Source: a virus. Taken from it: a stretch of DNA of 59,994 bases. Positions 15,603-32,498 of the stretch are shown here, piece by piece. Location of the stretch: positions 78,387 through 138,380 of the IMG/VR virus record IMGVR_UViG_3300009514_000004; one strand, given 5' to 3'. The notes below the pieces were generated by a model. That model searched no databases. It saw nothing but the letters and a program-made list of their open reading frames with translations, and had not been told where the DNA came from. A program made the position numbers and the translations under genes. Positions within the stretch are counted from its first letter, which is position 1, and each line of letters starts with the position of its first letter.

Positions 15603-16315
15603 CCCAATCACCCTCCGTTGCTCGGGTTGTGGCGCGCCACCTGGCGCCCCGGCGGGTGGTCGACGCCTACCTGAAGAGCCCGAGCGACAACAAGAAGGAC
15701 GAAATCAACATGAGGGAGTTCCTTTGCGAACTCCTGGGCTGCCTCAAGGCGATCTACTGGGCGCACTGGACCGCTCACTGGCAGTGCGCCGGCGACAGCT
15801 CATACGCCGACCACCTGATGTTCGGCCGGATGTACGAGGCCACTGTCGACGAGATCGACACCCTGGCCGAGAAAGCTGTCGGGTACTTCGGACCGTCGGC
15901 GGTCGACCCGCTCAAGGTCACCGAGATCGAGCTGCGTCATCTGTCGAAGTGGCCCCACGTCGACCACGTCAAGAAGGCCCTGCTGTGTGAGCAGGCGCTG
16001 CTGGACTACCTGTCGGCGCTGTACGACACCATCAAGAACCTCAACATGATGACGCTCGGCCTCGACGACTTCATCATGTCGCTGGCCAGCGCCCACGAGA
16101 CCAACGTCTACCTGCTCCAGCAGCGCCTGGGAGGCAAGGTCGCCTCCCATCACGAGCATCACCACTGCGACTGCCCGTGCGGTGACCACGACCATCACCA
16201 CGAGCACGGTCACCACCATGACCACGGTCACGAAGACGACCGTGTCGCGCTGACCAACCTGGAGAAGAGCTGGGGTGGGTACTCCACGTTCGCCCCGAGG
16301 AGGGATGCGCAGTGA
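15599..16315 (+). CDS. Dps/ferritin-like protein with His-rich tail
   Basis: HWTAHWQ..G..YADHLMF...YE...IDTLAE ferroxidase-like motif; 15 His within 32 residues near the C-terminus. Confidence 0.75.
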   Translation: MTQSPSVARVVARHLAPRRVVDAYLKSPSDNKKDEINMREFLCELLGCLKAIYWAHWTAHWQCAGDSSYADHLMFGRMYEATVDEIDTLAEKAVGYFGPSAVDPLKVTEIELRHLSKWPHVDHVKKALLCEQALLDYLSALYDTIKNLNMMTLGLDDFIMSLASAHETNVYLLQQRLGGKVASHHEHHHCDCPCGDHDHHHEHGHHHDHGHEDDRVALTNLEKSWGGYSTFAPRRDAQ

Positions 16316-19745: not shown

Positions 19746-20098
19746 GGCGGTTCAAGACGGGTCAGACGCCGGCGGAAACGGAGATGAGTAAACATCTCGC
19801 CAACGCCCGGTCGTCCCTTCAGGCGGCCTATGCGGTTGCACACAAGGCCCGTACGAACCGCCGCGTCGTGAACCGGCGCGTGGCCGAAGCCGAGTACAAG
19901 ATTCGGCGAGCCCTCGGCTCCATCGGCTCCATCCGAGGCCTCCAGCCGGCCTACGACTTGGATGACCCCGATCTGATGCCCGAGGAGGACAAGAGACCAC
20001 CCACGCCGGCAGAGGTGCCGGCCAAGGGACCGCCGCAGCTGGACAAGTTCGCGGAGGAGGCCCTCGTTTTAGGCGAAGCCGGAGAGGACGGTAGTTGA
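19739..20098 (+). CDS. hypothetical protein
   Basis: AGGAG RBS, overlaps with neighbours. Confidence 0.6.
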   Translation: MVRRFKTGQTPAETEMSKHLANARSSLQAAYAVAHKARTNRRVVNRRVAEAEYKIRRALGSIGSIRGLQPAYDLDDPDLMPEEDKRPPTPAEVPAKGPPQLDKFAEEALVLGEAGEDGS

Positions 20099-21795
20099 TG
20101 GCGAAGAAAGGACAATCAGGACGAGTCGTACGGAAGATCCCCAAGCGCCGCCGTGTACAGACGGGGAAGCCACGCAAAATCATCGCGGGGTCGATGCGGG
20201 TAGCCTACGGCGCCGGGTTCGGCGGTGCGGGAAGTAGTGGAGTCCTGATGGGAGCGGGCGGCAACGTCTACTCCCCCGAGCTGTCGACAGATTTCCTCGA
20301 GCTTCCGCAGTCCATAGACGAGCTGCGCAACTACTTCCGGTTCTTCTACCGGCGCGATCCGTTCGTGGGCCAGGCTGTCGACCTTCACGTCACCCTGCCG
20401 CTGTCCAAGACCACGATCAGCCGACCGGAAGCCAAGAGCCAAGAGCTGGCCGAAGAAGCCACCAAAGCCATGGTTGTGTGGGCCGATGAGATCGGGCTGC
20501 TCCACCGGCTCATGGAGATCGTCCACGACTACACCCTGATGGGTGAGGTCCATGTCTTCTGCGAGGACACCTCCCCGGACATCCCCGAGCACCTTCTGTG
20601 GGAGACGGTGCGCATCGTCGACGACGAGGGTGCCCACGAGGAGAAGATTCGTCGCAAGGACACCGAGGCTGAGGTCGCCGAGTGGGTCAAGGCCAACTAC
20701 AAGGGCTGGACAGCCATCCGGGTCTTGCCCCCCGAGCAGGTTCACATCGAGACCTTCCCGTTCACCGATGAAAAGCTCATGGAGCTGGTCCCCGACAGCA
20801 AAACCCGGGGCGTCGTGGCCCAGGCCCAACAGGGTGACCCGCGGGCGCAACGCGTCGTCGACTCGATGCCCAAGGAGATCGTCGAGCGCATCATCGCCGG
20901 CGAGAACATCCCCCTGAACACCGACCCTGACGCCGGCAGTTTCGTTCACACGATGAGCCGCCAGAAGTCCCAGTACGAGGCGCGAGGACACTCGGTGCTC
21001 GAGCGGTGTCTGCCGACCCTGGTCTACCGTGACAAGCTCCGGCAGGCTCAGACGTCCATCGCCAGCCGGCACATGACCCCGTACCGCATCGTGTACGCCG
21101 AGGACATGTCCGCGGAACAGACCGAGGACCTCAGAGATCAGGTCGACCTGGCGCTCCAGGACCCCGATTTCTCGATCGTCACCAACTTCCCGGTCGAGTG
21201 GGACGAGCGCGGCGCCGACGGGCGGCTGCTGGACCTGTCGTCCGAGTACGACCTGACCGACCGCCAGCTGTACGCCGGCCTCGGCGTCACCGAGGGCCTC
21301 CTGACGGGCGAGTCGACCTACTCCGGCGACCGCATCAGCCTCGACGTCATCAACACCCGGTTCATGCTCCTCCGCGAGCTTCTTCAGGACATGGTCGAGA
21401 AGTATTTCTTCAAGCCCATGTGCCGGAGGATGGGCTTCATCGAGGTCGATGACGACGGTCGAGAGAGGGTGATCTACCCACGACTGTCGTTCACCCGCCT
21501 GCCCCTGCGCGACAACCAGGACACGTTCGACATCCTGTTCAACCTCTACCAGAAAGGGTCGCTGGACATCGACGTCATCCTCGAGATGCTCAACATCGAC
21601 CCGATCCGGACGCGCGAGAAGCTCAAGCGCGACGCGATCACGCTGTCGGACGCCACTTTCAACGAGATCCTCCGCAGCGCCTACAGCCAGGCTGGCTCTG
21701 ACCTGGCGCAATACTCCGATCTAGTCAAGAAGGCCGCCGAAGAGCTGGACCTCAAGTACGAGAAGCCCGAGGAAGAGGGTGGGGGTCGGTGGTAG
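20095..21795 (+). CDS. portal protein
   Basis: 566 aa after terL; RFFY..DPFVGQAVDLH..LPLS, G.SVLERCL..LVYRDKLRQAQ and LGV...LL.GE.TY patterns of large-phage portals. Confidence 0.8.
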   Translation: MMAKKGQSGRVVRKIPKRRRVQTGKPRKIIAGSMRVAYGAGFGGAGSSGVLMGAGGNVYSPELSTDFLELPQSIDELRNYFRFFYRRDPFVGQAVDLHVTLPLSKTTISRPEAKSQELAEEATKAMVVWADEIGLLHRLMEIVHDYTLMGEVHVFCEDTSPDIPEHLLWETVRIVDDEGAHEEKIRRKDTEAEVAEWVKANYKGWTAIRVLPPEQVHIETFPFTDEKLMELVPDSKTRGVVAQAQQGDPRAQRVVDSMPKEIVERIIAGENIPLNTDPDAGSFVHTMSRQKSQYEARGHSVLERCLPTLVYRDKLRQAQTSIASRHMTPYRIVYAEDMSAEQTEDLRDQVDLALQDPDFSIVTNFPVEWDERGADGRLLDLSSEYDLTDRQLYAGLGVTEGLLTGESTYSGDRISLDVINTRFMLLRELLQDMVEKYFFKPMCRRMGFIEVDDDGRERVIYPRLSFTRLPLRDNQDTFDILFNLYQKGSLDIDVILEMLNIDPIRTREKLKRDAITLSDATFNEILRSAYSQAGSDLAQYSDLVKKAAEELDLKYEKPEEEGGGRW

Positions 21796-21821
21796 TCCTT
21801 CTATGAGCCACCCTGGGTGAG
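21791..21821 (+). promoter_or_regulatory. putative late promoter
   Basis: GGT-agtcctt-CTAT-N13-TGAG. Confidence 0.55.
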
Positions 21822-21844: not shown

Positions 21845-24800
21845 GTGCCAGATGGAACACTCCAGCGTGTAGCTCGGAACCTGGTGGCGCGTCACCAGAT
21901 GAGGGTCGTGGTGCGCCGTCTCGCCAAGACGGCCGGCTGGTGGGCGGTCAACCCCGACAAGGGCACGGGCCAGATCGACTGGGGCAACTCCGGTGAGCCG
22001 GGCGGCCTGGCCAATGAGATCCCCGGCGAGGGGAGCGACGACGGCAAGAGGTACAACGGCGACGGCCCGGCCGACATGATGGGCGCGGTCCTCGACGACA
22101 TCGACCTGGCTTACCGCCAGGCGTGGGGTCGGCCGGCGTACCCGGAAGAGATCGATGCGGTGTTCGAGTTTGTGTTCCGCGGCGCGCGCAAGGATTACGC
22201 GGACCCGCCGCCCCCCGACACCGACGAGTACGTGTCATGGCCGCTCAATCGATGGGTCGAGGAGACTGCTGAGTTCGCCGGGGTCACGACCGAGCGTCTG
22301 ATGAAGCTCCCCTGGGAAACCCTCCAGAAGCTCCGACAATGGGACATCGACCGCCGCAACGAGGGAGGGTCCAGCTCGTCCGACTCGGAGAAGGTCAAGA
22401 AGGAGAGGGAGGAGAAGAACCGCAAGAAGTGGGAGAAGCGCATCAAGTCGGTCATCGAGGTCAAGGTGAAAGCGGCCGGCAAGACCGCCGCCCTCGTGGG
22501 GACGGACGTCGCCGAGATCTACGCCATCTCACCTGAGCAACTCAGCACCCTCATCGAAGGGGGTCGGTGGGCTGAGGAGTGGCCCGAGGACCCGTTTGCC
22601 GCCGACAAACTCATCCGGCAGCACGGCGGCGCAGTGTTCCATACGGGGGCTGATGGGAAGTTCGATGTGAAGATCCCCGACCGAGAAGGGTCCCTCCCCA
22701 TCGTCGCTGAGTTCGGGTACATGGAACCCTACGGGACCAAAGGCTACGACGAGGCCATCAAGAAGGTGGCCAAGTTCGAGTGGCAAACAGGCGACGGATC
22801 CGAGACCTGGATTGGGTTCCGCATCCCCGCGCCCCTGTGCAATGAGTTCCCCGACCTCGGTCCCGAGGACAAGAGCCCTCCTCACATCACCTTCCTGTAC
22901 GCGGGCAAGGTGGACCCGGCGCGCACCGAGGAATTCCTGGCGACGATTCGTGACTCGTTCCGTTGGGTTCCGACGGTGCGCGCCAACTTCCTGGGTCTCG
23001 ACTACTTTACCCATGCGGACAAGAACCGGCGGGTCGCGATCAACCAGGTTCGGTTCGACCGTGACTTGTCAGACATCCGCTGGCGACTGCGAGAGGCCCT
23101 CAACGACCGCGGTTTCGACGTAGAGGACAGTTACCCGCTCCTTTACAAGCCCCACGCGACCCTCGAGTACATCGACGGCCTCGACACGCCCTACAAGGGT
23201 CACGTGCCGCGTGGGGATGTCATCCTGACCGAGGTCGAGGTCTGGGGGATGCCCAAGGTCCACCGGGTCGCGTTCGGCGGGGAGCGCAGGGACCTGTCCC
23301 CAAAGAGGGTGGCGTCCCTGTACCAGAAGCGGGCGTCACAGGACGACCTGTTCGACCCCCGGTTCAACCTTCGGGAGTGCTGCAAGCACCTCATCCTCCT
23401 CGAGGACCACCTGGCGCACCCGCACAAGCGGTGCAACGACTGCATCAACAAGCACCTGCTGGCGGTGGAAGCCTTCGCCGAAGAGGGCGTGGCGCTCCAA
23501 CCAGGCGGTCCCCTGTCGCAGCTTCTGGGACAGGTCGCCTCGACGGCAAGGGCGGCTCAGGGGTCTTGGTTGGCCAACCAAGACTCCGAAGGTCTCGGCG
23601 CCGTTCTGCGCAAGCTCCGCAAGTTCCTGGTGCCGCTGACCTGGGCTACCAAGATGGCCCGGATGGCCAAGACCTTCACGGTCAACGTCGGCGACCCGGT
23701 GCTGACGGGCAAATTCCAGAACAGCCCGGGCATCGTCCGCGGGTTCGACAAGGACGACAAGGGCAACCCGCTCGTGATCGTTCAGAAGGGCAAGGAGGGC
23801 GACGGGTCCAAGAAGACCTACAAGCTCTTCAAGATCAGGTACGACCTCGCCCGTGCCGAGCAGATGAAAAAGAAGGCCTTCGATGGCACCCGGTACGAGG
23901 TCGGTGAAGAGGTGGCTTTGGGTTCGTACCGGGATAGCGACCGGCCGGACGTTGCCATCTACTACTCCGGGGTCATCCTGGGTCCTCCCGATCACCTGCG
24001 GGAGACCCGAGACAGCGACCTCCAGGTCGAAGTCCATTACTCCGACGGTACCAAAGTCGAGAAGGTCGACCCGGACACTGTCATGTCTCGGGAGGAGTGG
24101 CTCGAAGCGCATCTTGGGCAGCCCTTCCCTAAGGGTCGGGTTGAGGTGCCCTCCAAGACAGCCGACCTGATGCCCCCTCTGGGGTATCCGGGCGGTCCCT
24201 GCCACGTCGTCCAGCGCATCGACGACCAGGTCCGCAACCCGAGGGTCAAAGACAACCTGACTGACCAAGTCCAGGACGGCAAGAGCCTGTCGAACCCGTC
24301 GGCGGCCAAGGTCTACCGACTCGAGAAGGAGAGGGGGCCGGGCGGCCCCATCAAGCAGATCCTCATCGGCCCGCACGCGCAGTACCGGATGGACCTGCGC
24401 GGCGTGACGGTGACCGAGGTCCGCCTGGCGCTCAAGCGGTTCACCAAGCAGCTCAACGACTGGAAGTCGCGCAAGGATTTCCAGTACGAGCACTTCATCA
24501 CCCGGTTCCAGCGAGGCGAGAGCTACGAGTACACCGACCCGGGCCTCAAGCTCACAGTCGTTTTCGCCGGCCACGGTCGCGACACCGCCAAGATCGTCAC
24601 GACCTACTGGAAGGGTCAGCCCGACCCGCCCCCTCCTGGAGCGTGCCTCCTCCCTTCCCCCTCTCGGGTCGCGGCCAGGTACAAGAACAAGAAGGAGGTG
24701 CCCAAGGCCGACGGGAAGGGCACGACTACGGTGTACGAGTACGGCCCCCGCCAGGTGGCGAACCGGAACAAGGAGAAGGCCCAGAGGGTCGAGAAGCTCC

Positions 24801-27800
24801 GCAAGAACATCGGCAAGCTCCGGTCGCAGGTGCGGCAGGACCTGATGGACTCCGACGAGGCCAAGCGCCTCACAGCCCTGGCGGTCGCTCTCATCGACAA
24901 CACTTTCGAGCGGGTGGGCAACCCTGAGTCGGCCAAGCAGGGCCACTTCGGGGTCACCGGATGGCTCGTCAAGCACGTCACGATCGGCAAGAGCAAGGCG
25001 ACGCTGAAGTACGTCGGCAAGTCCGGGGTCAAGCAGGAGAAGACGATCGACGACGCAGGGGTCGTCCTGGCCCTCAGAGAGGCGATCGCCGACAAGGGCA
25101 AGGGCGACAAGATCTGCTCGGGAACCGACTGCGAGATCGGTGCCTCAGACGTCAACGCCTACCTCAAGCCTTTCGGGGTGACGGCCAAGGATCTGCGCGG
25201 GTTCCACGCCAACACCGAGATGCAGAGGTTCCTCAAGGAGGAGCGCAAGGGCTCCCTGCCCGACGACAAAAAGAAGCGCGAAGATCAGCTCAAGAAGGAG
25301 TTCGACGCCGCTCTCGAGAAGTCGGCCAAGGCGGTCGGGCACGAGGCCTCGACGCTGCGCTCCCAGTACCTGGTCCCCGGACTCGAGGAGGCGTTCCTCA
25401 AGGACGGCACAGTCGACGACTCCCTGGTCAAGAAGGCGGGGGAGGACTGGTGGTACCGCCCGTACAGCATATATTCCCCGCCGGGGGTCTACGCGGGGAC
25501 CAAGAGCGACGGCGACAAGGAAGACGACAACGCCCGCAAGCTCATCAAAAAAGAGCCCAAGAAGAAGCCCCCGCGCCGGGACCTGCGCAAGCGTCGTCTG
25601 GACGACACCGACCCCGACATCGAGCCCCAAGGCGCCGAGAACGACCCCGACCTGAGCCTCAACTGGAAGAAGGTCTCGGCGATCCACCGCATGGCCGACT
25701 TTTGGCTGCGGCGCCGTCAGGTCCTGGCTGGTCTGGTGGCTCCCGACAAAAAGCCCAAGGCCGACGGGGACTATTGGTCGCCAGGAGACGGGAAATACTC
25801 CGGCATGGCCAATGGTGTGGTGCAGACCTTCGACAACCCCGAGTCGGCCAAGGATTACGCCTCGGGCAAGAAGAAGGAAGAGGACGACAAGGAGCCCAAG
25901 ACCGAGAAGGAGGAGAAGGAGAAGGAGAAGGCTGAGAGGGAGGAGGCGAAGAAACAGGAGCAGCTGGAGAAGAAACGCAAAGAGCGGCGAGAGCGCGCGA
26001 TCAGCGAGATGAACGACAAGGTCTCGCAGGCGTTCGAGCAGATGGGTATCGAAGGGATGTCCTCGGCGGTTCAGAAGGACCTCAAGCAAGCTCTCGAGCA
26101 GATCCCTGACGGCGAGGGCAAGGCCGCCTGGGCGTTCGAGGAGCATGTCTCCAAGCTGATCGAGAGCGATATCGCGGATGCCGGGTTTACCAACGAGGCC
26201 ATCGAACGCGCCTCCAAGGCACTGTCCCGGACCAAGTACGACGGCAAGGATCCCGAGAAGCTCGGGCGGCAGTACGCGGAGCTTGTTTTCGCGCAGATTG
26301 TCTCCAACCCCTCTTTGTTGGCCGCCAAACCCGTGTCCTCGACGCCGAAGACACCCGAGGCATTACAAGAGCGAGCTGAACAAGCCCACGACCAGTACAT
26401 GCGGATGCCGTCAGAGCTGCGGGCAGAGGCAGCTAAGCAGCTCGTCGCGCAGATGAAGAACCTCAAAGAGGACTCGCCGGAGTATCAGGAGCTGGCAGCG
26501 ATCGGCGATGGCTTGCATTTGGCGGCGGTCCAGAACGACGAACGTCTGGAGGTCGGAGGCAAGGAACTCCGGAGCCGACCGACCCCACGCCTGCGGGCCC
26601 TGCTCAAGCAGTTGGGGCCCGAAGCCGGCAAGCACACCGAACTCCTGCATCTCGACCACCTGACCTCCCCCAAGGGCCGCAAGCAGGTCCGGCAGCATAT
26701 GGACAAGCTCGAGCCCGAGGAAGTGGTCGACTTCGTCGGAGGCACCGAGGGCCCGTTCGGTCAGCTTGCGGGGCTGGTCAACGACCCCGAGCTGAGCACC
26801 GAGCACCGGGAGCTGGCCCTGAAAATGCTCAAGGGCCTGGCGGTCGACGAGATGACCGTGGCCGGCGGGTTCCTCCAGCGGGCCGCCAAAGGCAACCGCG
26901 ACCGCGGCGCCGAGAAGGCTGACATCCGTGAGCAGGTCGAGAAGGGCAAGGGCAAGGGCCGCAAGCTCTTCGATGAGGATGAGGAAGCCGAGACCGAAGA
27001 GGCCAAGGCCGAGAAGGAGTACCGCGAGTGGGAGTCCCGGGAGGAGAAAAAGAAGGCCAAGCGGTCGGAGCTGCTCCAGAAGTACGACGCCTCGAAGGCC
27101 AAGTACATGGAGGCCCGCAGGGCTAAAGACAGGTTCATCCAGGAACGGATGAAGGCCCGGGACCAAGGCAAGGACGACTGGAGCGAGCACGAAGAGGAGT
27201 ACGAGAAGCTCACCCAGGCTGTTGAAGACCTCCAGAACGAGGTCGACGGCTGGAAAGCGGAGATGGAGGCGGTCCAGGCGGAGCCCGCCCCCGAAGGTGC
27301 CAAGGCCCCGCCCAGCTCTTCGGCGAAAAAGGCCGATGAGGTCTTCGACCGTGTAGATCAGATCTTGTCGGAGTCCAAAGGGCTCAGCGTCGACGAGCTT
27401 CGATCACGGTTCCAGTCGGAGATGTCGGTCGAGGACGAGCTGGAGAAGATTCTCGCGGAAGACAAGACGTACAAGCCGCAAACACCTCCTCCCTGGGCCA
27501 ACCCCATCGGCAAGCTCGACGAATGCCTCCGGGAGGGTGGCACGTACGACACGTGCATCCAGAAGGTCCGGAAGCTGCGGCAGCAGTTCGAGGCCTGGAA
27601 GGACGAGAAGACCAGCGAACGTATCCTTGCCGAAGTCAAAGACAGCCCCGAGATGAAGAAGGCCACCGAGGAGATGTTGGAGGCCATGAGGGGCGACACC
27701 CTTTCAGTCGATGCCCGCGCCGAGGTCGAGAGAAAGTACCGGGCGGCGTATGCTCGATCTGTCCAGGGTGCCGCCCACCGGGAGTTCGGTGAGCTTTCGC

Positions 27801-28825
27801 CCGGGAATCCGGCGGCCGCTCAGATGAGTCAGGTTGCTGAGACGGGCAAGGTCGAGGAGTTCGACAACCGCTGGGAGTCGGCACCCAAGAAGGAGTCGTC
27901 CTGGAGTCCTCGAGGCGGATTTTTTCAATCACGTTTCTATACGGCCGGACATATATGCGGAGGGCGTAGCCACGCCCGTGTAAGTCCGTCGTGGAATAAC
28001 AACCTCCCAAGGAGAAACCGGACGATGGCTAACGATAACAAGCAGGCGCAGTTCAAGCTCACGGCGGCAGTGGCGATGAAGATCGGCGCGGACTTCGACA
28101 AGGTGGCCAACTTGGTCACCCACATGCACGAGGTCCTCGGCATTCCCGAGAAGATCGCGATGGATTACGCCCGTCGGACCGACTACCTCTCGAGCCTCAT
28201 CGAGCGCAACGCCGGGCTCGACCCGCGCAACAAACAGGCGCTGACCGAGGACCCGAACCTCAAGGTCGACTACCCGGTCAAGCCGGGCTTCGACCCCGAG
28301 GAGATCGGCGAGGAGGTCTCCGGGACCCTCGAAGGCGACGCCGACGAGAAGTCCTACATGGGCGACAACTTCTCCCAGCAGGAGAACCGCGAGCTGCGTG
28401 AGCGGCAGGAGGGCGGCGACCTGGCCAAGCTCCAGGTGATCGACGACGAGCAGTCTTCGACCCCCGGTCGACAGGCCACGCTCGACGAGACGCTGTCGAA
28501 GTTCAAGGGCACCCAGCTCCGGACTTTCATCAGCCAGCTCGAGTCCGACTACCAGGCCGCCTCGGGCAAGCTCGGTGGGACGCGGCGAGGTGATCTTCGT
28601 TCGATCGCCGGTGGGCTGGCGTACATCGCCCACAACCTCGGGAAGGCCGCGTCGGCCCTCGAGGATGACGACACGATCGTCGGCAACTACACCCGGCAGG
28701 GTATCCAGCGTGTCGCCGCGGCGGCCAACGAGGTCCTCCCGCATGTCCAGGGCGACATCGCCGAGACGGACATCCCGAAGCTGGCCCAGCTGGTCGACGC
28801 CGTCGCCGACATCCTCGCGGCCTGA
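21845..28825 (+). CDS. giant multidomain head protein (putative polyprotein): 2H phosphoesterase, Cys/His domain, SH3/KOW-like, RNase-like, topoisomerase IB and helical domains
   Basis: HITF/HATL 2H motifs (22883, 23152); RVGN, GKSG, KDLR, VGH, SQY topoisomerase IB residues (about 24700-25430); lies between portal and protease. Confidence 0.75.
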   Translation: MPDGTLQRVARNLVARHQMRVVVRRLAKTAGWWAVNPDKGTGQIDWGNSGEPGGLANEIPGEGSDDGKRYNGDGPADMMGAVLDDIDLAYRQAWGRPAYPEEIDAVFEFVFRGARKDYADPPPPDTDEYVSWPLNRWVEETAEFAGVTTERLMKLPWETLQKLRQWDIDRRNEGGSSSSDSEKVKKEREEKNRKKWEKRIKSVIEVKVKAAGKTAALVGTDVAEIYAISPEQLSTLIEGGRWAEEWPEDPFAADKLIRQHGGAVFHTGADGKFDVKIPDREGSLPIVAEFGYMEPYGTKGYDEAIKKVAKFEWQTGDGSETWIGFRIPAPLCNEFPDLGPEDKSPPHITFLYAGKVDPARTEEFLATIRDSFRWVPTVRANFLGLDYFTHADKNRRVAINQVRFDRDLSDIRWRLREALNDRGFDVEDSYPLLYKPHATLEYIDGLDTPYKGHVPRGDVILTEVEVWGMPKVHRVAFGGERRDLSPKRVASLYQKRASQDDLFDPRFNLRECCKHLILLEDHLAHPHKRCNDCINKHLLAVEAFAEEGVALQPGGPLSQLLGQVASTARAAQGSWLANQDSEGLGAVLRKLRKFLVPLTWATKMARMAKTFTVNVGDPVLTGKFQNSPGIVRGFDKDDKGNPLVIVQKGKEGDGSKKTYKLFKIRYDLARAEQMKKKAFDGTRYEVGEEVALGSYRDSDRPDVAIYYSGVILGPPDHLRETRDSDLQVEVHYSDGTKVEKVDPDTVMSREEWLEAHLGQPFPKGRVEVPSKTADLMPPLGYPGGPCHVVQRIDDQVRNPRVKDNLTDQVQDGKSLSNPSAAKVYRLEKERGPGGPIKQILIGPHAQYRMDLRGVTVTEVRLALKRFTKQLNDWKSRKDFQYEHFITRFQRGESYEYTDPGLKLTVVFAGHGRDTAKIVTTYWKGQPDPPPPGACLLPSPSRVAARYKNKKEVPKADGKGTTTVYEYGPRQVANRNKEKAQRVEKLRKNIGKLRSQVRQDLMDSDEAKRLTALAVALIDNTFERVGNPESAKQGHFGVTGWLVKHVTIGKSKATLKYVGKSGVKQEKTIDDAGVVLALREAIADKGKGDKICSGTDCEIGASDVNAYLKPFGVTAKDLRGFHANTEMQRFLKEERKGSLPDDKKKREDQLKKEFDAALEKSAKAVGHEASTLRSQYLVPGLEEAFLKDGTVDDSLVKKAGEDWWYRPYSIYSPPGVYAGTKSDGDKEDDNARKLIKKEPKKKPPRRDLRKRRLDDTDPDIEPQGAENDPDLSLNWKKVSAIHRMADFWLRRRQVLAGLVAPDKKPKADGDYWSPGDGKYSGMANGVVQTFDNPESAKDYASGKKKEEDDKEPKTEKEEKEKEKAEREEAKKQEQLEKKRKERRERAISEMNDKVSQAFEQMGIEGMSSAVQKDLKQALEQIPDGEGKAAWAFEEHVSKLIESDIADAGFTNEAIERASKALSRTKYDGKDPEKLGRQYAELVFAQIVSNPSLLAAKPVSSTPKTPEALQERAEQAHDQYMRMPSELRAEAAKQLVAQMKNLKEDSPEYQELAAIGDGLHLAAVQNDERLEVGGKELRSRPTPRLRALLKQLGPEAGKHTELLHLDHLTSPKGRKQVRQHMDKLEPEEVVDFVGGTEGPFGQLAGLVNDPELSTEHRELALKMLKGLAVDEMTVAGGFLQRAAKGNRDRGAEKADIREQVEKGKGKGRKLFDEDEEAETEEAKAEKEYREWESREEKKKAKRSELLQKYDASKAKYMEARRAKDRFIQERMKARDQGKDDWSEHEEEYEKLTQAVEDLQNEVDGWKAEMEAVQAEPAPEGAKAPPSSSAKKADEVFDRVDQILSESKGLSVDELRSRFQSEMSVEDELEKILAEDKTYKPQTPPPWANPIGKLDECLREGGTYDTCIQKVRKLRQQFEAWKDEKTSERILAEVKDSPEMKKATEEMLEAMRGDTLSVDARAEVERKYRAAYARSVQGAAHREFGELSPGNPAAAQMSQVAETGKVEEFDNRWESAPKKESSWSPRGGFFQSRFYTAGHICGGRSHARVSPSWNNNLPRRNRTMANDNKQAQFKLTAAVAMKIGADFDKVANLVTHMHEVLGIPEKIAMDYARRTDYLSSLIERNAGLDPRNKQALTEDPNLKVDYPVKPGFDPEEIGEEVSGTLEGDADEKSYMGDNFSQQENRELRERQEGGDLAKLQVIDDEQSSTPGRQATLDETLSKFKGTQLRTFISQLESDYQAASGKLGGTRRGDLRSIAGGLAYIAHNLGKAASALEDDDTIVGNYTRQGIQRVAAAANEVLPHVQGDIAETDIPKLAQLVDAVADILAA
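27927..27957 (+). promoter_or_regulatory. putative late promoter internal to the giant ORF
   Basis: AAT-cacgttt-CTAT-N13-TATG followed by AAGGAG and ATG at 28025. Confidence 0.55.
28025..28825 (+). CDS. probable separately translated head protein nested in frame at the end of the giant ORF
   Basis: Own promoter motif, AAGGAG RBS at 28009-28014, codon bias resumes at MANDNKQA. Confidence 0.55.
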   Translation: MANDNKQAQFKLTAAVAMKIGADFDKVANLVTHMHEVLGIPEKIAMDYARRTDYLSSLIERNAGLDPRNKQALTEDPNLKVDYPVKPGFDPEEIGEEVSGTLEGDADEKSYMGDNFSQQENRELRERQEGGDLAKLQVIDDEQSSTPGRQATLDETLSKFKGTQLRTFISQLESDYQAASGKLGGTRRGDLRSIAGGLAYIAHNLGKAASALEDDDTIVGNYTRQGIQRVAAAANEVLPHVQGDIAETDIPKLAQLVDAVADILAA

Positions 28826-28840
28826 TCTCCGGAGACCCTC

Positions 28841-29386
28841 TTGTCGTATCCCAACTACCAGGAACGGGCGGCTGAGTTCTCCGTAGGAGACCGGGTGTTC
28901 CCGTTCTACACCGATGCCTACCACGCCGGGACGGTTGTCGCGGTGTGGCCGGCCATCGGGATGGTAGATGTGTCTTTCCCTCACGGGACGGCACGCATGG
29001 GGGTCGAAGAGCTTCAACGTGGTGAGCGGGGGGATGAGGCGGTTCCGCCCTCCCCCGAGAACGAGACGGTCCCGGGTGGTGTAGGCATGGTCCCCGTCTC
29101 CGCGGGACCCAACGCGACGCGGGTGGCACGAACCTTCGTTCAGCAGTCCCTCCAAAAGAACGCGCTCTACTGGGCCGCGGTCGACCGGAAGTACCGAGCC
29201 TCCCGCAGCGAGCTGGACTCCGGCAAGTACGGATGCCCCAAGTGCAAAGCGGCGGCCCTACGTCGTGCCGTGTACAAGCGCCGCGACGGGTCCAGCGAGA
29301 AGCTCTACGGCTGCCCTTCGTGTCTGTTCCTGGTCAAGCGGTGCGACATCATCGGTGACTCCCATCACGCGCCGGCGGGGGTCTGA
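28841..29386 (+). CDS. SH3-like plus Zn-ribbon head protein
   Basis: FSVGDRV..GTVVAVWP, ATRVARTF tag, CPKC...CPSC. Confidence 0.65.
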   Translation: MSYPNYQERAAEFSVGDRVFPFYTDAYHAGTVVAVWPAIGMVDVSFPHGTARMGVEELQRGERGDEAVPPSPENETVPGGVGMVPVSAGPNATRVARTFVQQSLQKNALYWAAVDRKYRASRSELDSGKYGCPKCKAAALRRAVYKRRDGSSEKLYGCPSCLFLVKRCDIIGDSHHAPAGV

Positions 29387-29389
29387 GTC

Positions 29390-30829
29390 ATGGGGTTCGT
29401 CAAGTACGCCAATGCTGAGGTCGTGGATCCACGGGTCAACAAGACCGCGTGGAACAACATCCGTACGGCCTCGTTTGGTACCCCAGTAGACCTGATCGAG
29501 CAGGCCTCGGCGATCTTCGCCGAGCCGTTCAACCCCTCCAAGTTCCTCTTGACTCACGCGACGATCGTGGCGTCCGTAGATGTGGTCGACGCCCCCAACG
29601 CCAAGCTGGGGTCGCACGTCGAGAACGGGTTCAAGGTCAACCGGAAGTTCGGCGACTACCGGCTCAAGACCGACTCCCAACGGTTCGTCAACAACAACAA
29701 CGACTGCTGGTCACGGGGGGTGCTCAAGCTCGCACACCCGACGTTCGTGGGCGCCCACAACTTCGTCGAGCATGTGCAGATAGAGGAGCTGAGCAAGGGC
29801 CGCATCATCGACGCGGTGGCTCGCGACATCGGCCCCTCCATCTACACCGACATCCTGATCGCGACCGAGCTGAAGCACGCCCCTCTCATCCGTTCCATCC
29901 GGAGCGGGGAGATGTCGACGCTGTCGATGGGCTGCACGGTCGATTTCACCATCTGCACCAAGTGCGGTCACGTCGCAGCGGACGAGACCGAGATGTGCCC
30001 GCACGTCAAGTACCAGAAGGGCAACACGTACATCGACCCGATGACCGGCCAGATCCTCAAGATCGCCGAGTTGTGTGGGCACGAGAGCGTGGATCCCACT
30101 GGTGGCGTGGTCTTCATCGAGGCCAGCTGGGTCAAGACACCAGCTTTCACCGGCGCGGTGCTCCGCAACGTCCTTCAGCCGTCCAAGGAGCTGAGCCGGC
30201 AGATCGAAGCCGTTCTGGCCTCTCCGCCGAAGAAGTGGAGCGAGGACACCCAGGTCAAGGCCGCCGCTGACGCCCGACTTTCCCAGTGGGAAGAAGAGGA
30301 GACCGAGGGCGAGGGTGAAGAAGAAGAGGAAGAGGCCAAGTCTCCCCTCGATGACGTCAAGGACGAAGTCGAGCAGCACATCCTTGACCAGACGGTCAAG
30401 AAGCTGAAGAAGAAGGTCAAAGAAGATGCCGCCAAGGATGAGTTGGGTGTACTCCCCTCGTCGGCGTCCCCCAACGAGAACGTGAACAAGTGGTCAGCCG
30501 AGCGCAAGACCGCGGCACGTCACTACGTTGCGGCTCTCAAAGCGATCGCGACGACCGCCTCGTCAGACGTTGCTCTGATGAACGGCGTCGCGACGTTCAA
30601 CCAGTCCGTTGGCATTCAGATCCCGGTTCATGTGTACCGGGCCGCGCTCCAGCTCGGAGCAAGGTCCAAGTACGCGTCCGAGGCGGCGTTCAGGAAGGCC
30701 TGTCGGCAGGCACTGGGTCGGAAACCTTATCCGGCCGAGTTCCAACAGGTGCTCGCCATGAGCACCCTTCTCACGCGGAGGCACCCTTCCGCAACCACTC
30801 TTGACGGAGGTCAAAATGAGCACGCGTAA
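29390..30829 (+). CDS. prohead (capsid maturation) serine protease
   Basis: FVEH histidine, GRIIDA, LSMGC serine, CTKCG..CPH zinc insert, FIEASWV..PAF; sits upstream of scaffold and MCP. Confidence 0.8.
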   Translation: MGFVKYANAEVVDPRVNKTAWNNIRTASFGTPVDLIEQASAIFAEPFNPSKFLLTHATIVASVDVVDAPNAKLGSHVENGFKVNRKFGDYRLKTDSQRFVNNNNDCWSRGVLKLAHPTFVGAHNFVEHVQIEELSKGRIIDAVARDIGPSIYTDILIATELKHAPLIRSIRSGEMSTLSMGCTVDFTICTKCGHVAADETEMCPHVKYQKGNTYIDPMTGQILKIAELCGHESVDPTGGVVFIEASWVKTPAFTGAVLRNVLQPSKELSRQIEAVLASPPKKWSEDTQVKAAADARLSQWEEEETEGEGEEEEEEAKSPLDDVKDEVEQHILDQTVKKLKKKVKEDAAKDELGVLPSSASPNENVNKWSAERKTAARHYVAALKAIATTASSDVALMNGVATFNQSVGIQIPVHVYRAALQLGARSKYASEAAFRKACRQALGRKPYPAEFQQVLAMSTLLTRRHPSATTLDGGQNEHA

Positions 30830-32498
30830 GCGTACGTCGTGGGCGGATGGCAACAAGGTCGCGTCTCCGCCTCCCGCTGTCCCGGGATACCTGGAATACT
30901 GGACCGACGACGGTGGGCCACACCCTGCCGCGTACAAGGATCCGGCCTACGAGGCCTACAAGAAGGGCGACCCTTCGGCGTGGGCCGAAGATGTGCACCC
31001 GGGTCCGCACCGCACGTCGGAGCCCCCGTCGGTTCCTGGCTACCGCCAGGAGGACGGCAAGGCCCACCCGGCCGATGACCGCGACAGCTCCAACAAGCGC
31101 GCGGCGGAGGAGATCCCCCGTCACGAGCTGGAGGCGCGGGCTCTCAAAGCCATCCACATCGCCCAACAGCTGCTGCCCAAGACGGCCTCGGTGGCCGAGA
31201 TCGAGCAGCAGGCTGCGGACCTGATGGAGATGCCCCCGGAGCGTCTCGAGAAGACCCTCGAGCGCGTCGGCGGCGGGTTCATGGGCATGGAGGAGGGCAT
31301 GATGGGCTGTGGCCCGGCTGAGGGCATGGACATGCCCATGGGCGAGGACATGCCCCTCGAGGAGGAGGAAGGTGGCGACGAAGCCATGGCCTCCGGCCGC
31401 TACTCCATGGACGACGTGCTCTCCATGATCATGGGGATGAAGCAAGAGATGGAGGCCATGAAGGGCGGCATGATGCACGCCGCCGACCAGAACGACCCCG
31501 ACTTCATGTTCGACGGTGACGGCGGGTCCGGCGGTGAGTTCTCCGAAAAGGAGGTCGACGACCGCACCAAGAACGTCACCGGCACGGGCCTGGGCATGTA
31601 CGCGAAGAAGGTCGCGTCCGAGATGTTCAAGTCCATGGACACCGACGGCGACGGCTTCGTCACCGAGGAGGACTGGACGGGCGACAAGAAGCTCTTCGCG
31701 TCCCTCGACACCGACGGTGACGGCATCCTCGCGTACGGCGAGACCATCGAAGCCCTGGCGAGTCGCTTCGCCCAGGACGACGAAGAGGACGACGACGGCG
31801 AGGAGGAGGAGGGCAAGGAAGCCGGCGAGCTGCCCGAGGCCTTCAAGAAGAACATCAAGAAGAAGGACGACGAGGAGGGCGACGACGACGACGACGACGA
31901 GGGTGAAGAGGGCAAGGAGGCCGGCGACAAGTCCGCCACCATGACGCTCTTCGCCGGTCTCGACGACGAAGCGAAAGCCATGCTCCGGCAGATGCTCGCC
32001 GAGGAAGACGCCAAGACCGCGCAGGACGAGGGCGAGGACGAGGGCGAGGACGAGGGCGAGGACGAGGGCGAAGAGGCCGAAGAGGACGAGGAGGGCAAGG
32101 AAGCCGCTCTCGTCGCGGAGGCCGGCACCTTCGCCATGGTGGACGACCCGATGGGTCTGTCCGGCGATGCGCCCGAGGACACCCTGCTCGTCGACCTGTT
32201 CACCAGGCAGGCCGAGGACGAGGAGGCCGAAGAGGGCGACGACGAAGGCGAAGAGGAGGAAGGCAAGGAGGCCACCCTGGTCGCCGACCCGGATCCCGAG
32301 ACCCAGGCCAAGCAGACCGAGGTCGTCGCCAAGGTCGCATCCAAGGTCGCGTCCAAGAGCAAGCGTCGCCCCAAGGGCCGCAAGCCGTCCAAGGGCGTCA
32401 AGCAGCTCGGCCGCGTGGCCGCCGACCAGAGCGACAAGGTCAGTGACCTGTCGAACCTGTGGGAGACCAAGCCGGACGTGAGCAGCGCGTTCGAGTAG
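30816..32498 (+). CDS. acidic scaffolding protein with two EF-hand motifs
   Basis: GGAGG RBS, very D/E-rich, DTDGDGFVTEED and DTDGDGILAYGE, many KxA sites, position between protease and capsid genes. Confidence 0.7.
   Translation: MSTRKRTSWADGNKVASPPPAVPGYLEYWTDDGGPHPAAYKDPAYEAYKKGDPSAWAEDVHPGPHRTSEPPSVPGYRQEDGKAHPADDRDSSNKRAAEEIPRHELEARALKAIHIAQQLLPKTASVAEIEQQAADLMEMPPERLEKTLERVGGGFMGMEEGMMGCGPAEGMDMPMGEDMPLEEEEGGDEAMASGRYSMDDVLSMIMGMKQEMEAMKGGMMHAADQNDPDFMFDGDGGSGGEFSEKEVDDRTKNVTGTGLGMYAKKVASEMFKSMDTDGDGFVTEEDWTGDKKLFASLDTDGDGILAYGETIEALASRFAQDDEEDDDGEEEEGKEAGELPEAFKKNIKKKDDEEGDDDDDDEGEEGKEAGDKSATMTLFAGLDDEAKAMLRQMLAEEDAKTAQDEGEDEGEDEGEDEGEEAEEDEEGKEAALVAEAGTFAMVDDPMGLSGDAPEDTLLVDLFTRQAEDEEAEEGDDEGEEEEGKEATLVADPDPETQAKQTEVVAKVASKVASKSKRRPKGRKPSKGVKQLGRVAADQSDKVSDLSNLWETKPDVSSAFE
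32025..32072 (+). repeat. 12-bp tandem repeat (GACGAGGGCGAG)x4 encoding DEGE
   Basis: Directly visible; last unit ends in GAA. Confidence 0.9.

What the first reader, a model, noticed from the sequence alone, without database searches (positions are those of the whole stretch)
21845..28825. 2,326-aa head ORF built as a polyprotein of enzymes separated by K/R-x-A sites
Seen: domain boundaries coincide with AKTA (21923), GKTA (22481), KKVA (22760), QKRA (about 23330), KKKA (23870), SKTA (24155), RVAAR (about 24670) and VKKA (25430). The segments are: two unknown domains, a 2H phosphoesterase (about 22772-23290), a Cys/His domain (23336-23660), two SH3/KOW-like units, an RNase-like domain (24164-24650), topoisomerase IB (24683-25438) and a long helical domain. 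The ORF lies between portal and prohead protease, behind its own late promoter motif. Inference: it is packaged whole, cut by the prohead protease into a toolkit of ejected effectors, and evolves by domain insertion between cleavage sites.
Basis: partly seen in the sequence, partly recalled or inferred. Interest (0 to 1): 0.87.

Follow-up and report, generated by a model that had tools for sequence, protein, structure and literature searches.

The report
Topoisomerase-centred modular phage head polyprotein
A huge uncultured phage encodes, between its portal and capsid-protease genes, a 2,326-residue chain of unrelated enzyme modules whose joints carry a Lys/Arg-x-Ala motif that also studs the other head-assembly proteins, so it is probably cut into separate injected enzymes; this kind of protein is known, but the joint motif and this topoisomerase-based family are not described.

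Summary
The ORF and all eight K/R-x-A sites are real. The window is a fragment of a phage-G-like huge phage.

**What the protein is.** It is a 'polyvalent protein' (Iyer 2017) built around a type IB topoisomerase. More than 750 cluster representatives share this core, and 80 viral loci show the synteny TerL, portal, topo ORF of 290-3,098 aa, gene B, p181, protease, scaffold, MCP.

**The motif.**
- K/R-x-A is not enriched over the whole ORF.
- It sits at 8 of 9 homology-block boundaries (p<1e-5).
- Across 251 relatives it starts exactly at block onsets at 8.5-12.7 times background.
- It is 1.5-2.4 times enriched in scaffold, gene B, p181, protease and portal orthologues.
- It is depleted in MCP, TerL, the decoration protein and the topo core.
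- K-x-A is the top a-x-b pattern in the head proteins of phage G and Tunturi_5.

**The protease.** It has the assemblin/T4 gp21 fold.

**Verdict.** Cleavage at the joints is therefore well supported but not shown.

- The last 266 aa are a normally separate gene, fused here by read-through of an intact intergenic region.
- 'RVAAR' is the first conserved stretch of the topo module.
- The 2H domain is confirmed. The RNase assignment is borderline and the SH3/KOW assignment is untested.

This is a new variant of a known kind.

The parts
20095..21795 (+). Portal gene. It has a conserved [KR]-x-A (here MRVA|Y, residues 34-37) in front of the conserved GGNFYSPELSTDFLELPQS core.
   Evidence: PHROG portal match, E 1.3e-28. 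Most of the 33 orthologue N-termini shown carry K/R-x-A at this place.
21800..21805 (+). TCTATG, a promoter-like element 45 nt before the GTG start.
   Evidence: All four TCTATA copies and three of eight TCTATG copies in the window lie 19-90 nt before + strand starts. Function was not tested.
21845..21928 (+). N-terminal leader (residues 1-28): the helix RVARNLVARHQMRVVVRRLA, ending in KTA.
   Evidence: The model shows a helix over residues 3-27. The same leader precedes this module inside relatives, which supports the GTG start over the ATG at codon 19.
21920..22480 (+). Module 1 (residues 26-212), of unknown function. It opens with K-T-A-G-W-W. It has a small fold at 69-114 and helices at 136-217.
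   Evidence: Shared with 12 relatives, all starting [KR]-x-A-G-W-W. Model.
22481..22765 (+). Module 2 (residues 213-307), of unknown function. It opens with K-T-A-A-L-V-G-T-D.
   Evidence: Found in 9 relatives in other contexts, and absent from P0073. The model is poor here because the alignment is shallow.
22766..23290 (+). 2H phosphoesterase (residues 308-482), with the motifs HITF and HATL.
   Evidence: pLDDT above 90 over residues 312-480. Foldseek matches: D. radiodurans CPDase at E 8.6e-8, LigT, and viral 2',5'-PDE and cGAMP PDE. Pfam PF13563 is found in homologues.
23291..23347 (+). Linker (residues 483-501) carrying RVASLY and KRA|S.
   Evidence: Helix of low confidence behind the 2H core. 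RVAxRY-type leaders precede modules across the family.
23348..23659 (+). Cys/His module (residues 502-605), of unknown function.
   Evidence: Shared with about 21 relatives. It is a separate gene of about 135 aa just after the portal gene in LR745208.1.
23660..23869 (+). Small module with a KOW-like GDxVxxGK motif (residues 606-675), preceded by KMA-RMA.
   Evidence: Shared with about 34 relatives. The fold was not tested.
23870..24154 (+). Small module (residues 676-770), which opens with KKA.
   Evidence: Shared with P0072, P0041 and P0160; the block boundaries are 676 and 771. The fold was not tested.
24155..24655 (+). Module with the ADLxPxLGYPGGPC motif (residues 771-937), which opens with KTA. 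Possibly a BECR-type RNase.
   Evidence: About 25 relatives, many of them stand-alone proteins of 170-360 aa with an RVAxRY leader. DUF4258 is matched in homologue P0161 at E 3e-5, 24.6 bits against a cut-off of 25. No match by sequence in the PDB.
24656..25438 (+). Type IB topoisomerase (residues 938-1198). It begins RVAARYKNKKEVPK and ends DGTV..LVKKA.
   Evidence: Pfam PF01028, E 8.8e-25. The boundaries are 936-944 and 1192-1199 in 150 representatives. The R, K, R, H and Y of RVGN, GKSG, KDLRG, VGH and SQY are invariant.
25439..26944 (+). Conserved stretch behind the topoisomerase (residues 1199-1700): the KKKPPRRDLR...DPDLSLNWK motif, then a helix-prone region.
   Evidence: Residues 1217-1290 are shared with about 100 relatives, and 1300-1700 with about 50 of 157. 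No structure was obtained.
26945..27898 (+). Lineage-specific charged region (residues 1701-2018).
   Evidence: No relatives in the set. GC3 remains that of coding sequence.
27899..28024 (+). Intergenic region read through in frame. It contains a T-run, TCTATAC...CATAT...GCGGAGGGC...GCCC, and an AAGGAG RBS.
   Evidence: GC3 falls to 0.40-0.67; sequence. The same element lies between two separate genes in 31 of 35 relatives.
28025..28825 (+). Gene B (266 aa), fused here to the giant ORF. It is a conserved head-module protein rich in [KR]-x-A.
   Evidence: A separate gene in 31 of 35 non-redundant loci and in LR745208.1. [KR]xA is 2.35 times the expected count.
28841..29386 (+). p181, a conserved small gene between gene B and the protease.
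   Evidence: 47 orthologues in the same position. [KR]xA is 1.88 times the expected count.
29390..30829 (+). Prohead protease. It has a disordered N-terminus with KYA, KTA and RTA, an assemblin/gp21-fold core at residues 40-264, an acidic linker, and a helical C-terminal domain.
   Evidence: PHROG head maturation protease match, E 4.9e-10. Model with core pLDDT of 85-97. Foldseek top hit is T4 gp21. VIA gives Z 10.6 for VZV protease and 9.6 for T4 gp21.
30801..32498 (+). Acidic scaffold-like protein studded with K-[TV]-A-S.
   Evidence: Seven [KR][TV]A sites were read in its sequence. 27 orthologues carry [KR]xA at 2.43 times the expected count, while other spacings are about 1.0.

Best explanation
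**Shown.**
- The ORF is a phage 'polyvalent protein': a chain of independently folding, independently mobile modules built around a type IB topoisomerase.
- It is encoded in the head-assembly block of a phage-G-like huge phage.
- Its modules are joined by short linkers that carry [KR]-x-A, often behind an RVAxRY-type helix.
- The motif marks module starts across the family.
- The motif is enriched in the head proteins that are usually processed and avoided in those that must stay whole.
- The neighbouring protease has the assemblin/gp21 fold.
- The last 266 residues are a normally separate head-module gene (gene B), joined on because the upstream stop is missing while promoter-like element, hairpin and RBS are still in place.

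**Inferred.**
- The chain is built into the prohead.
- The assemblin-fold prohead protease, encoded two genes downstream, cuts after the Ala. The next residue is mostly Ser, Ala or Gly, as at herpesvirus assemblin sites.
- This releases a topoisomerase, a 2H phosphoesterase, a possible RNase and several small domains.
- These travel into the cell with the DNA.
- Gene B is probably made both free and as a tail of the giant protein.
For: - **Class.** TopoIB and 2H lie in one chain. Relatives carry ART-PolyVal, InPase, PolyA_pol, RNA ligase and ChaC next to the same topo core.
- **Head context.** The order TerL, portal, topo ORF, gene B, p181, protease, scaffold, MCP recurs in most of 80 loci.
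- **Modularity.** Topo ORFs range from 290 to 3,098 aa. The interval is one ORF in 7 loci and 2-6 ORFs in 13 loci.
- **Joint motif in this ORF.** 8 of 9 boundaries, p<1e-5.
- **Joint motif in the family.** [KR]xA starts at offset 0 of block onsets at 8.5 times background, and 12.7 times with equal weight per module family. The control Ax[KR] gives 2.4 times. It is seen in a dozen or more unrelated modules.
- **Motif in the head proteins.** An unbiased scan of 400 a-x-b patterns ranks KxA first in LR745208.1, Tunturi_5 and phage G, and second in this window's other head proteins. Only spacing 1 is enriched.
- **Orthologue sets, observed over expected.** Scaffold 2.43, gene B 2.35, p181 1.88, protease 1.74, portal 1.51. 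Against these: MCP 0.57, TerL 0.56, decoration protein 0.53, topo core 0.75.
- **Conserved sites.** Present at the portal and protease N-termini.
- **Protease fold.**
- **Sites 28, 213, 307, 488 and 495.** They lie outside confidently folded cores.
- **Gene B fusion.**
Against: - No cleavage product, virion proteome or expression data exist for this phage or any topo-bearing relative.
- [KR]xA is not enriched over the whole ORF or over the family's proteins as a whole (1.00). About half of the sites in residues 1-500 lie inside folded parts.
- Some stand-alone module proteins start M-K-K-A-D-L. There the motif sits at residues 2-4, where cutting would serve no purpose. Part of the motif may therefore belong to the modules.
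- RVAAKY is a conserved piece of the topo module, even at protein N-termini.
- The mapping of invariant H128 and S179 onto the catalytic positions of gp21 or assemblin was not checked.
- BLAST block starts are biased towards conserved residues.
Confidence: 0.6

Rival explanations
1. The protein is packaged and delivered largely intact, like the N4 virion RNA polymerase. The [KR]-x-A motif with its RVAxRY helix at module starts would then be a docking or capsid-targeting element, or a flexible-linker signature. The protease would cut only scaffold, portal and its own ends.
For: - The motif and leader are kept at the very N-terminus of stand-alone module proteins, as a targeting tag would be.
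- P1' at the joints of this ORF is mixed (G, A, K, S, F, D, A, G), whereas Ser and Ala predominate in the pooled head-protein orthologues.
- The 2017 polyvalent-protein paper notes that some such proteins are transferred full length.
Against: - The same tripeptide, at the same spacing only, is enriched about 2.4 times in scaffolds and avoided in MCP, the decoration protein and the topo core. That fits a protease site better than a docking tag.
- In T4, targeting sequences and cleavage sites coincide (my own knowledge), so the two readings are not exclusive.
Confidence: 0.22
2. The protein is not a virion component. It would be an intracellular multi-enzyme for DNA topology and RNA repair that merely lies in the head gene block, and the joint motif would be a relic of gene fusions.
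For: - Stand-alone TopoIB genes in other jumbo phages have been read as DNA-topology enzymes (PMC7824862).
- Joints such as R-M-A-K-T could be fossil ATG-GCN starts of formerly separate genes.
Against: - The position between portal and protease is conserved over 80 loci, while every other feature of the ORF varies.
- The middle residue of the motif is mostly T, K, V, A or L, not the M, V or L that fossil starts would give.
- A fossil start explains neither the K/R before it nor the many sites within scaffolds.
- Relatives carry ART-PolyVal and InPase, which are typical of injected polyvalent proteins.
Confidence: 0.08
3. The single 2,326-codon frame is an assembly artefact: a missed stop or an indel in the T-run near 27920 joined two genes.
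For: - The junction keeps a full intergenic element and an RBS.
- The contig is a metagenomic fragment.
Against: - Three independent contigs (L047, L069, L084) show the same in-frame fusion, two of them with the intergenic element retained.
- In either case this concerns only the last 266 residues, not the modular part.
Confidence: 0.1

Closest known systems
Polyvalent proteins of phages and conjugative elements (Iyer, Burroughs, Anand, de Souza, Aravind 2017, PMC5512222)
   Same: - Many domains of unrelated activity sit in one chain.
- The gene lies next to virion genes of a portal-terminase phage.
- Orthologues show extreme mosaicism.
- 2H and BECR-type RNase modules occur, and relatives carry ART-PolyVal and InPase.
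- Processing by peptidases, including assemblin-like ones, was proposed.
   Different: - TopoIB is not among the domains discussed there. The only 'topoisomerase' in the text is in a reference.
- No joint motif is described there.
- The peptidase there is a domain within the chain (MPTase, or assemblin-like at the C-terminus). Here it is the separate prohead protease.
Head proteins processed by T4 gp21, phiKZ gp175 and SPN3US gp245
   Same: - The prohead protease has the same fold.
- A short motif is repeated over scaffold, portal, protease and internal or ejected proteins.
- N-terminal propeptides are removed (PMC10052503).
   Different: - Those enzymes cut after Glu in x-x-E motifs (my own knowledge). 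Here the motif is [KR]-x-A.
- Their substrates are mostly single-function proteins that lose a propeptide, not chains of enzymes separated by sites.
Herpesvirus assemblin and its maturation and release sites
   Same: - The fold matches (VIA Z 10.6 to VZV protease).
- The predicted cut is after Ala, with Ser preferred next, as at the (V/L)-x-A|S sites (my own knowledge).
   Different: - A basic residue at P3 is required here.
- The substrates include a multi-enzyme chain.
- The specificity is inferred, not measured.
Virion-packaged type IB topoisomerase of poxviruses
   Same: A TopoIB with the R-K-R-H-Y set that would be carried in the particle.
   Different: - This is a tailed phage.
- The enzyme is embedded in a modular chain.
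- Packaging is inferred from gene position only.
MuF/SPP1 gp7-type head proteins fused to effector domains
   Same: A gene just behind the portal gene carries variable effector modules, including 2H and BECR RNases.
   Different: No MuF domain was detected. The constant part is a topoisomerase plus a conserved stretch behind it.

Membership tests
Polyvalent proteins (Iyer et al. 2017) | Two or more domains of disparate biochemical activity in one polypeptide | tested here: met
   TopoIB (Pfam E 8.8e-25) and 2H phosphoesterase (Foldseek E 8.6e-8), plus at least five further separately mobile modules.
Polyvalent proteins (Iyer et al. 2017) | Encoded by a phage with a portal-terminase system, in the context of virion genes | tested here: met
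   TerL, portal, protease, scaffold and MCP flank the gene here and in most of 80 loci.
Polyvalent proteins (Iyer et al. 2017) | Carries domains typical of the class (ART-PolyVal, InPase, LPDs, MPTase) | tested here: not met
   None is detected in this protein. They are present in relatives that share its topo core: ART-PolyVal in P0003 and P0008, InPase in P0007 and P0172. This is not a required feature of every member.
Polyvalent proteins (Iyer et al. 2017) | Delivered into the host with the DNA | not testable with these tools
   Needs virion proteomics and infection assays.
Type IB topoisomerase (PF01028) | Profile match above the curated cut-off | tested here: met
   87.8 bits against a cut-off of 23.7, residues 973-1170.
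Type IB topoisomerase (PF01028) | Catalytic Arg-Lys-Arg-His-Tyr set | tested here: met
   R90, K126, R185, H233 and Y242 of the aligned segment (RVGN, GKSG, KDLRG, VGH, SQY) are invariant in 12 sequences. Assigning them to the pentad rests on motif recall, not on a structural superposition.
2H phosphoesterase superfamily | Two H-x-T/S motifs on the 2H fold | tested here: met
   HITF and HATL. pLDDT above 90 and top matches to CPDase, LigT and viral 2',5'-PDEs. PF13563 is found in homologues.
BECR-fold RNases (DUF4258 / PBECR) | Profile or fold match of residues 771-937 | tested here: inconclusive
   One homologue, P0161, matches DUF4258 at E 3e-5, 24.6 bits against a cut-off of 25. Other members have no hit, and a profile search of PDB sequences found nothing. 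No structure was predicted.
Assemblin / gp21-fold prohead proteases (for the neighbouring gene 29390-30829) | Fold of the catalytic domain | tested here: met
   The Foldseek list is led by T4 gp21 and herpesvirus proteases. VIA gives Z 10.6 (rmsd 2.5, 113 aligned), Z 10.0, and Z 9.6 to T4 gp21 (128 aligned).
Assemblin / gp21-fold prohead proteases (for the neighbouring gene 29390-30829) | Catalytic His and Ser at the family's positions | tested here: inconclusive
   H128, S179 and H163 are invariant in 33 orthologues, but their superposition on the catalytic residues was not examined. Pfam finds no family.
Substrates of a prohead protease (motif-defined) | Recognition motif shared with scaffold, portal and protease, and avoided in the shell proteins | tested here: met
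Substrates of a prohead protease (motif-defined) | Observed cleavage at the motif | not testable with these tools
   No proteomic data are available. The phage G capsid paper (PMC7316594) is not held.

The most novel reading that the evidence does not exclude
A large, so far uncultured clade of huge phages would use its capsid protease as a polyprotein-processing enzyme. A [KR]-x-A 'punctuation' would let unrelated enzyme modules be swapped in and out between portal and protease, as fused or separate genes alike, so that each phage loads its head with a custom set of injected enzymes around a constant virion topoisomerase IB. Short RVAxRY leaders and the gene B tail would serve as loading signals.
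Probability: 0.4. Interest if true: 0.8.

Novelty: new variant of a known kind. Interest (0 to 1): 0.66.

Why it matters
**If the joints are cut**
- This would be a clear case of polyprotein logic in a tailed dsDNA phage.
- The sequence rule is simple enough to predict the mature products, and the packaged proteome, of hundreds of uncultured huge phages from sequence alone.
- It would give a prohead-protease specificity different from the Glu-specific T4 and phiKZ type and close to herpesvirus assemblin.
- It would point to a phage counterpart of the poxvirus virion topoisomerase.
- The hypervariable interval would be a catalogue of candidate anti-defence and take-over enzymes: 2H phosphodiesterases, ADP-ribosyltransferases, nucleotidyltransferases, RNA ligases and pyrophosphatases.

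**Even without cleavage**
The family, its conserved position and the joint motif are useful for annotation.

Tried and rejected
**Searches that found nothing**
- A locus scan with the whole protein found no relatives. A profile of the topo module was needed.
- PHROGs gave no hit for the giant protein.
- Pfam on the whole protein gave only Topoisom_I.
- Pfam on 33 protease orthologues gave nothing, and a PDB sequence search with the protease gave nothing.
- A profile of the 771-937 module against PDB sequences gave nothing.
- The ESM Atlas gave no usable hit for gene B. Two earlier tries failed because the machine was busy.
- The phage G capsid paper, which might hold cleavage data, is not held. 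Papers on phage G proteomics and jumbo-phage reviews mention no such motif or family.

**Structures not obtained**
- MAFFT could not place shuffled or fragmentary homologues on a multi-module query.
- No usable alignment, and so no structure, was obtained for residues 500-940.
- In the model of residues 1-500, module 2 stayed at low confidence.

**Readings considered and rejected**
- 'K/R-x-A is enriched in the ORF as a whole': false.
- The motif as a fossil of fused ATG/GTG-GCN starts: the middle residue is mostly not M, V or L, and this explains neither the basic residue nor the many scaffold sites.
- The motif as a recombination joint: only the amino-acid pattern is kept, with a free middle residue.
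- Composition bias of Lys/Ala-rich helices: only spacing 1 is enriched. Spacings 0, 2, 3 and 4 and the reverse pattern are not, with small exceptions.
Full report
**Where the window comes from.** The window is the last 60 kb of a 138-kb IMG/VR record estimated to be 26% complete. Its major capsid protein is 87% identical to that of the 485-kb uncultured phage LR745208.1, 48% to Tunturiibacter phage Tunturi_5 and 39% to Bacillus phage G. Around the finding lie TerL, portal, the giant ORF, a 181-aa gene, a 479-aa head maturation protease, an acidic scaffold-like protein, a 225-aa protein and the capsid protein.

**The ORF.**
- 21845-28825 is open for 2,326 codons, with third-position GC of 0.74-0.96 throughout, except at codons about 2005-2060, where it falls to 0.40-0.67.
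- That stretch (27899-28024) reads as an intergenic region: a T-run, TCTATAC...CATAT...GCGGAGGGC...GCCC, then AAGGAG and ATG at 28025.
- The 266 residues behind it are a separate 211-aa gene in LR745208.1. They are a separate gene, 70-190 nt behind the stop of the topo ORF, in 31 of 35 non-redundant related loci.
- The same promoter-like element and hairpin lie in that gap in many of these loci. In-frame fusions occur in the window, L047, L069 and L084.
- So the '2,326-aa ORF' is a modular gene of about 2,018 codons plus a neighbouring head-module gene (gene B). Gene B has probably kept its own start.

**The modules.**
- Pfam sees only a type IB topoisomerase (973-1170, E 8.8e-25). The R, K, R, H and Y of RVGN, GKSG, KDLRG, VGH and SQY are invariant in an alignment of 12 members.
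- An exhaustive profile-free search with residues 1-1200 found 3,682 cluster representatives, 754 below 1e-30. The topo block ends at query residues 936-944 and 1192-1199 in proteins of 326 to 3,381 residues.
- BLAST against 186 collected relatives cuts the rest into blocks that occur in other orders and alone: 19/26-212, 213-307, 308-482, 502-605, 604-676, 676-771, 771-937, 938-1198, 1217-1290, 1300-1700 and 2026-2300. Residues 1700-2020 are without relatives.
- Residues 308-482 are a 2H phosphoesterase. The evidence is HITF and HATL, PF13563 in homologues, pLDDT above 90, and Foldseek matches to D. radiodurans CPDase (E 8.6e-8), LigT, rotavirus VP3 and poxvirus cGAMP phosphodiesterase.
- The 771-937 block is often a stand-alone protein of 170-360 aa. 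It touches DUF4258 in one homologue just below the cut-off and nothing in the PDB by sequence.
- The Cys/His block is a separate gene right after the portal gene in LR745208.1.
- The small blocks at 606-770 were not folded. The first has a KOW-like GDxVxxGK pattern.

**What kind of protein it is.**
- Relatives with the same topo core carry PolyA_pol (interrupted by an intein), ART-PolyVal, InPase, RNA ligase, an AstE/AspA-type peptidase, ChaC and GNAT domains.
- This is the 'polyvalent protein' class of Iyer et al. 2017. These are multidomain proteins of phages and conjugative elements, encoded next to virion genes, thought to be injected with the DNA and processed by peptidases, with strong mosaicism among orthologues (PMC5512222).
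- TopoIB does not figure in that paper. A later jumbo-phage survey by the same group treats phage TopoIB as a DNA-topology enzyme.

**Conserved position, variable content.**
- A scan of IMG/VR with a topo profile gave 175 confirmed loci, of which 80 were kept.
- In most of them the order is TerL, portal, topo ORF, gene B, p181, protease, scaffold, 225-aa protein, MCP. The topo ORF ranges from 290 to 3,098 aa.
- A subclade has a topo-only gene of about 350 aa between TerL and portal.
- In 20 loci that hold both portal and gene B, the interval is 3.2-12 kb. It is read as one ORF in 7 loci and as 2-6 ORFs in 13.
- Modules of the window's protein (module 1, 2H) lie in separate upstream ORFs in several loci.
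- The capsid protein is 84-93% identical across these loci, while the portal is 44-70% and the protease 35-64% identical.

**The joint motif in this ORF.**
- Over the ORF the motif is not enriched: 44 [KR]xA against 34.7 +/- 5.1, and 21 KxA against 19.2.
- Its placement is what counts. 8 of 9 block boundaries in residues 1-1210 have a site within -7..+1, which no one of 100,000 random placements reached.
- In the model of residues 1-500, sites 28, 213, 307, 488 and 495 lie in low-confidence stretches between folded parts. Sites 396, 416 and 474 lie inside the 2H core.
- The first site ends an N-terminal helix, RVARNLVARHQMRVVVRRLA. This helix also precedes the same module inside relatives, so the GTG at 21845 is the likely start.
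- RVAAR opens the topo module. RVAA[KR][YF]K.KK.VPK is kept even where the module begins a protein.

**The joint motif in the family.**
- Unrelated modules open with the same tripeptide: K-T-A-G-W-W, K-T-A-A-L-V-G-T-D, K-T-A-D-L, K-T-A-I-I, K-Q-A-C-I-V, K-T-A-A-G-N-Q, R-M-A-S-V-P, K-T-A-A-Y-D, K-K-A-G-G-S-R and others.
- The topo module ends DGTV..L.K-[KT]-A just before whatever follows.
- In an all-against-all BLAST of 251 family proteins, [KR]xA starts exactly at the modal start of homology blocks 8.5 times more often than its background frequency. The figure is 12.7 times when each of 41 block families counts once. Neighbouring offsets give 1-3 times, and the control pattern Ax[KR] gives 2.4 times.
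- Many modules, including stand-alone ones, are preceded by a short RVAxRY(L) leader.
- That leader pattern occurs 10 times in this phage fragment's proteins against 2.2 expected. The occurrences include the N-termini of the portal, of a 238-aa ORF at 15599 and of the giant ORF.

**The motif in the head module.**
- I scanned all 400 a-x-b patterns without choosing one in advance. KxA ranks first in the portal-to-scaffold proteins of LR745208.1 (44 against 23.6), Tunturi_5 (38 against 17.9) and phage G (22 against 10.3). It ranks second, after ExE, in this window's head proteins without the giant ORF (25 against 12.2).
- Only the spacing K-x-A is raised, apart from two smaller excesses, K-A at spacing 0 in LR745208.1 and A-x-K in Tunturi_5. 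Tail proteins of Tunturi_5 show 12 against 12.0.
- In orthologue sets from the 80 loci, [KR]xA observed over expected is 2.43 in scaffolds, 2.35 in gene B, 1.88 in p181, 1.74 in proteases and 1.51 in portals. Other spacings range from 0.67 to 1.42 and in no set exceed spacing 1. The residue after Ala is Ser (329), then Ala (235).
- It is depleted in the capsid protein (0.57), TerL (0.56), the 225-aa protein (0.53) and the topo core (0.75). It is exactly 1.00 over the polyvalent proteins as a whole.
- Most portal orthologues have K/R-x-A just before the conserved core (MRS-KVA-F/Y-P..GG).
- Nearly all proteases start MAFxKYA...W..V-R-T-A.
- Enrichment in proteins that are usually processed, together with avoidance in those that must stay whole, is the pattern expected of a maturation-protease site.

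**The protease.**
- The 479-aa protein matches a PHROG of head maturation proteases but no Pfam family and no PDB sequence.
- It was folded with 33 orthologues (mean pLDDT 77.4, core 85-97). It has a disordered N-terminus carrying the three sites, a beta-rich core at 40-264 with a Cys-rich insert, an acidic disordered linker and a helical C-terminal domain.
- The Foldseek list is led by T4 gp21 (E 1.8e-3, probability 0.97) and herpesvirus proteases.
- VIA-align gives Z 10.6 to VZV protease (rmsd 2.5 over 113 residues), Z 10.0 to pseudorabies pUL26N and Z 9.6 to T4 gp21 (rmsd 3.0 over 128 residues). These stand above unrelated MCE-domain rows at Z 6-7.
- H128, H163 and S179 are invariant. I did not verify that they superpose on the catalytic residues.
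- Herpesvirus assemblin cuts after Ala before Ser, and T4 and phiKZ enzymes cut after Glu. Both statements are my own knowledge.

**Mechanism proposed.**
- Shown: a modular chain of enzymes in a conserved head-module position; a [KR]-x-A punctuation at module starts in the whole family; the same motif's enrichment and avoidance pattern in head proteins; an assemblin-fold protease two genes downstream; modules that exist as separate genes in relatives.
- Inferred: the chain is incorporated into the prohead, the protease cuts after the Ala of exposed joint sites, and the freed modules are ejected with the DNA.
- The constant parts are the topoisomerase, the KKKPPRRDLR...DPDLSLNWK stretch and the helical region behind it. 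They may be what ties the protein to DNA or to the head.
- The 2H module could remove cyclic-nucleotide or 2',5'-linked immune signals or trim RNA ends, as proposed for this class.
- The gene B tail may be a neutral read-through or a loading aid. I cannot tell which.

**Limits.**
- There are no proteomic or expression data.
- Residues 500-940 and 1199-2326 were not modelled.
- Block starts from BLAST lean towards conserved residues.
- Some stand-alone modules begin M-K-K-A-D-L, so part of the motif may belong to the modules themselves.
- The promoter reading rests on a hexamer.

**Earlier notes of this scan.** I tested the first four here and they hold as far as sequence can show.

**Verdict.** The class is known, while the topoisomerase-based family, its fixed place in a large clade of huge phages and the [KR]-x-A joint rule appear not to be described.

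Noticed in passing
window 30801-32498: The acidic scaffold-like protein contains a single canonical EF-hand loop at residues 273-292 (Pfam EF-hand_1, E 1.3e-7, above the cut-off). A calcium-binding motif in a phage scaffold is unusual.
   Followed up: no
L005-L084: The capsid protein is 84-93% identical across these loci, while portal (44-70%), protease (35-64%) and scaffold (29-53%) diverge much more. The capsid protein is strikingly constrained.
   Followed up: no
L038, L048, L061-L063, L066, L067, L070, L075-L080, L082: A subclade has a topo-only gene of about 350 aa between TerL and portal, instead of a long modular ORF behind the portal gene.
   Followed up: partly
window 27935-27985, and upstream of gene B in L012, L036, L047, L049, L084 and others: A conserved intergenic element, TCTATAC-N7-9-CATAT-N1-3-GCGGAGGGC-loop-GCCC, lies in front of gene B. 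It looks like a promoter followed by a hairpin. It is kept even where it is read through in frame.
   Followed up: partly
L005, L020, L053, L056 protease ORFs: The protease ORFs are 920-1,474 aa instead of about 480-550. In further loci (L057, L007, L013) the ORF found begins with an endonuclease-like sequence. This suggests inteins or inserted homing genes in the protease gene.
   Followed up: no
P0003 residues 506-1090: In a relative's polyvalent protein, the poly(A) polymerase head domain is followed by an intein with a LAGLIDADG endonuclease.
   Followed up: no
window 13359-15602 and 15599-16315: A 747-aa ORF upstream of TerL has 6 [KR][TV]A sites against 1.4 expected. The next ORF (238 aa) starts with an RVVARHL leader and has a KVA before a His-rich stretch. 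Both are candidates for further packaged, processed proteins.
   Followed up: partly
window 34441-36390: A 649-aa ORF right after the capsid gene combines LAGLIDADG_2 (E 1.5e-25), HTH domains and a methyltransferase-like C-terminus. GC drops to 0.60 here.
   Followed up: no
window 28841-29386: p181 is conserved in 47 loci between gene B and the protease. It has an SH3-like N-terminal pattern and two Cys pairs (CPKC...CPSC).
   Followed up: no
window 39673-47028: A second giant ORF (2,451 aa) lies on the + strand, with no [KR][TV]A excess (2 against 1.3 expected).
   Followed up: no
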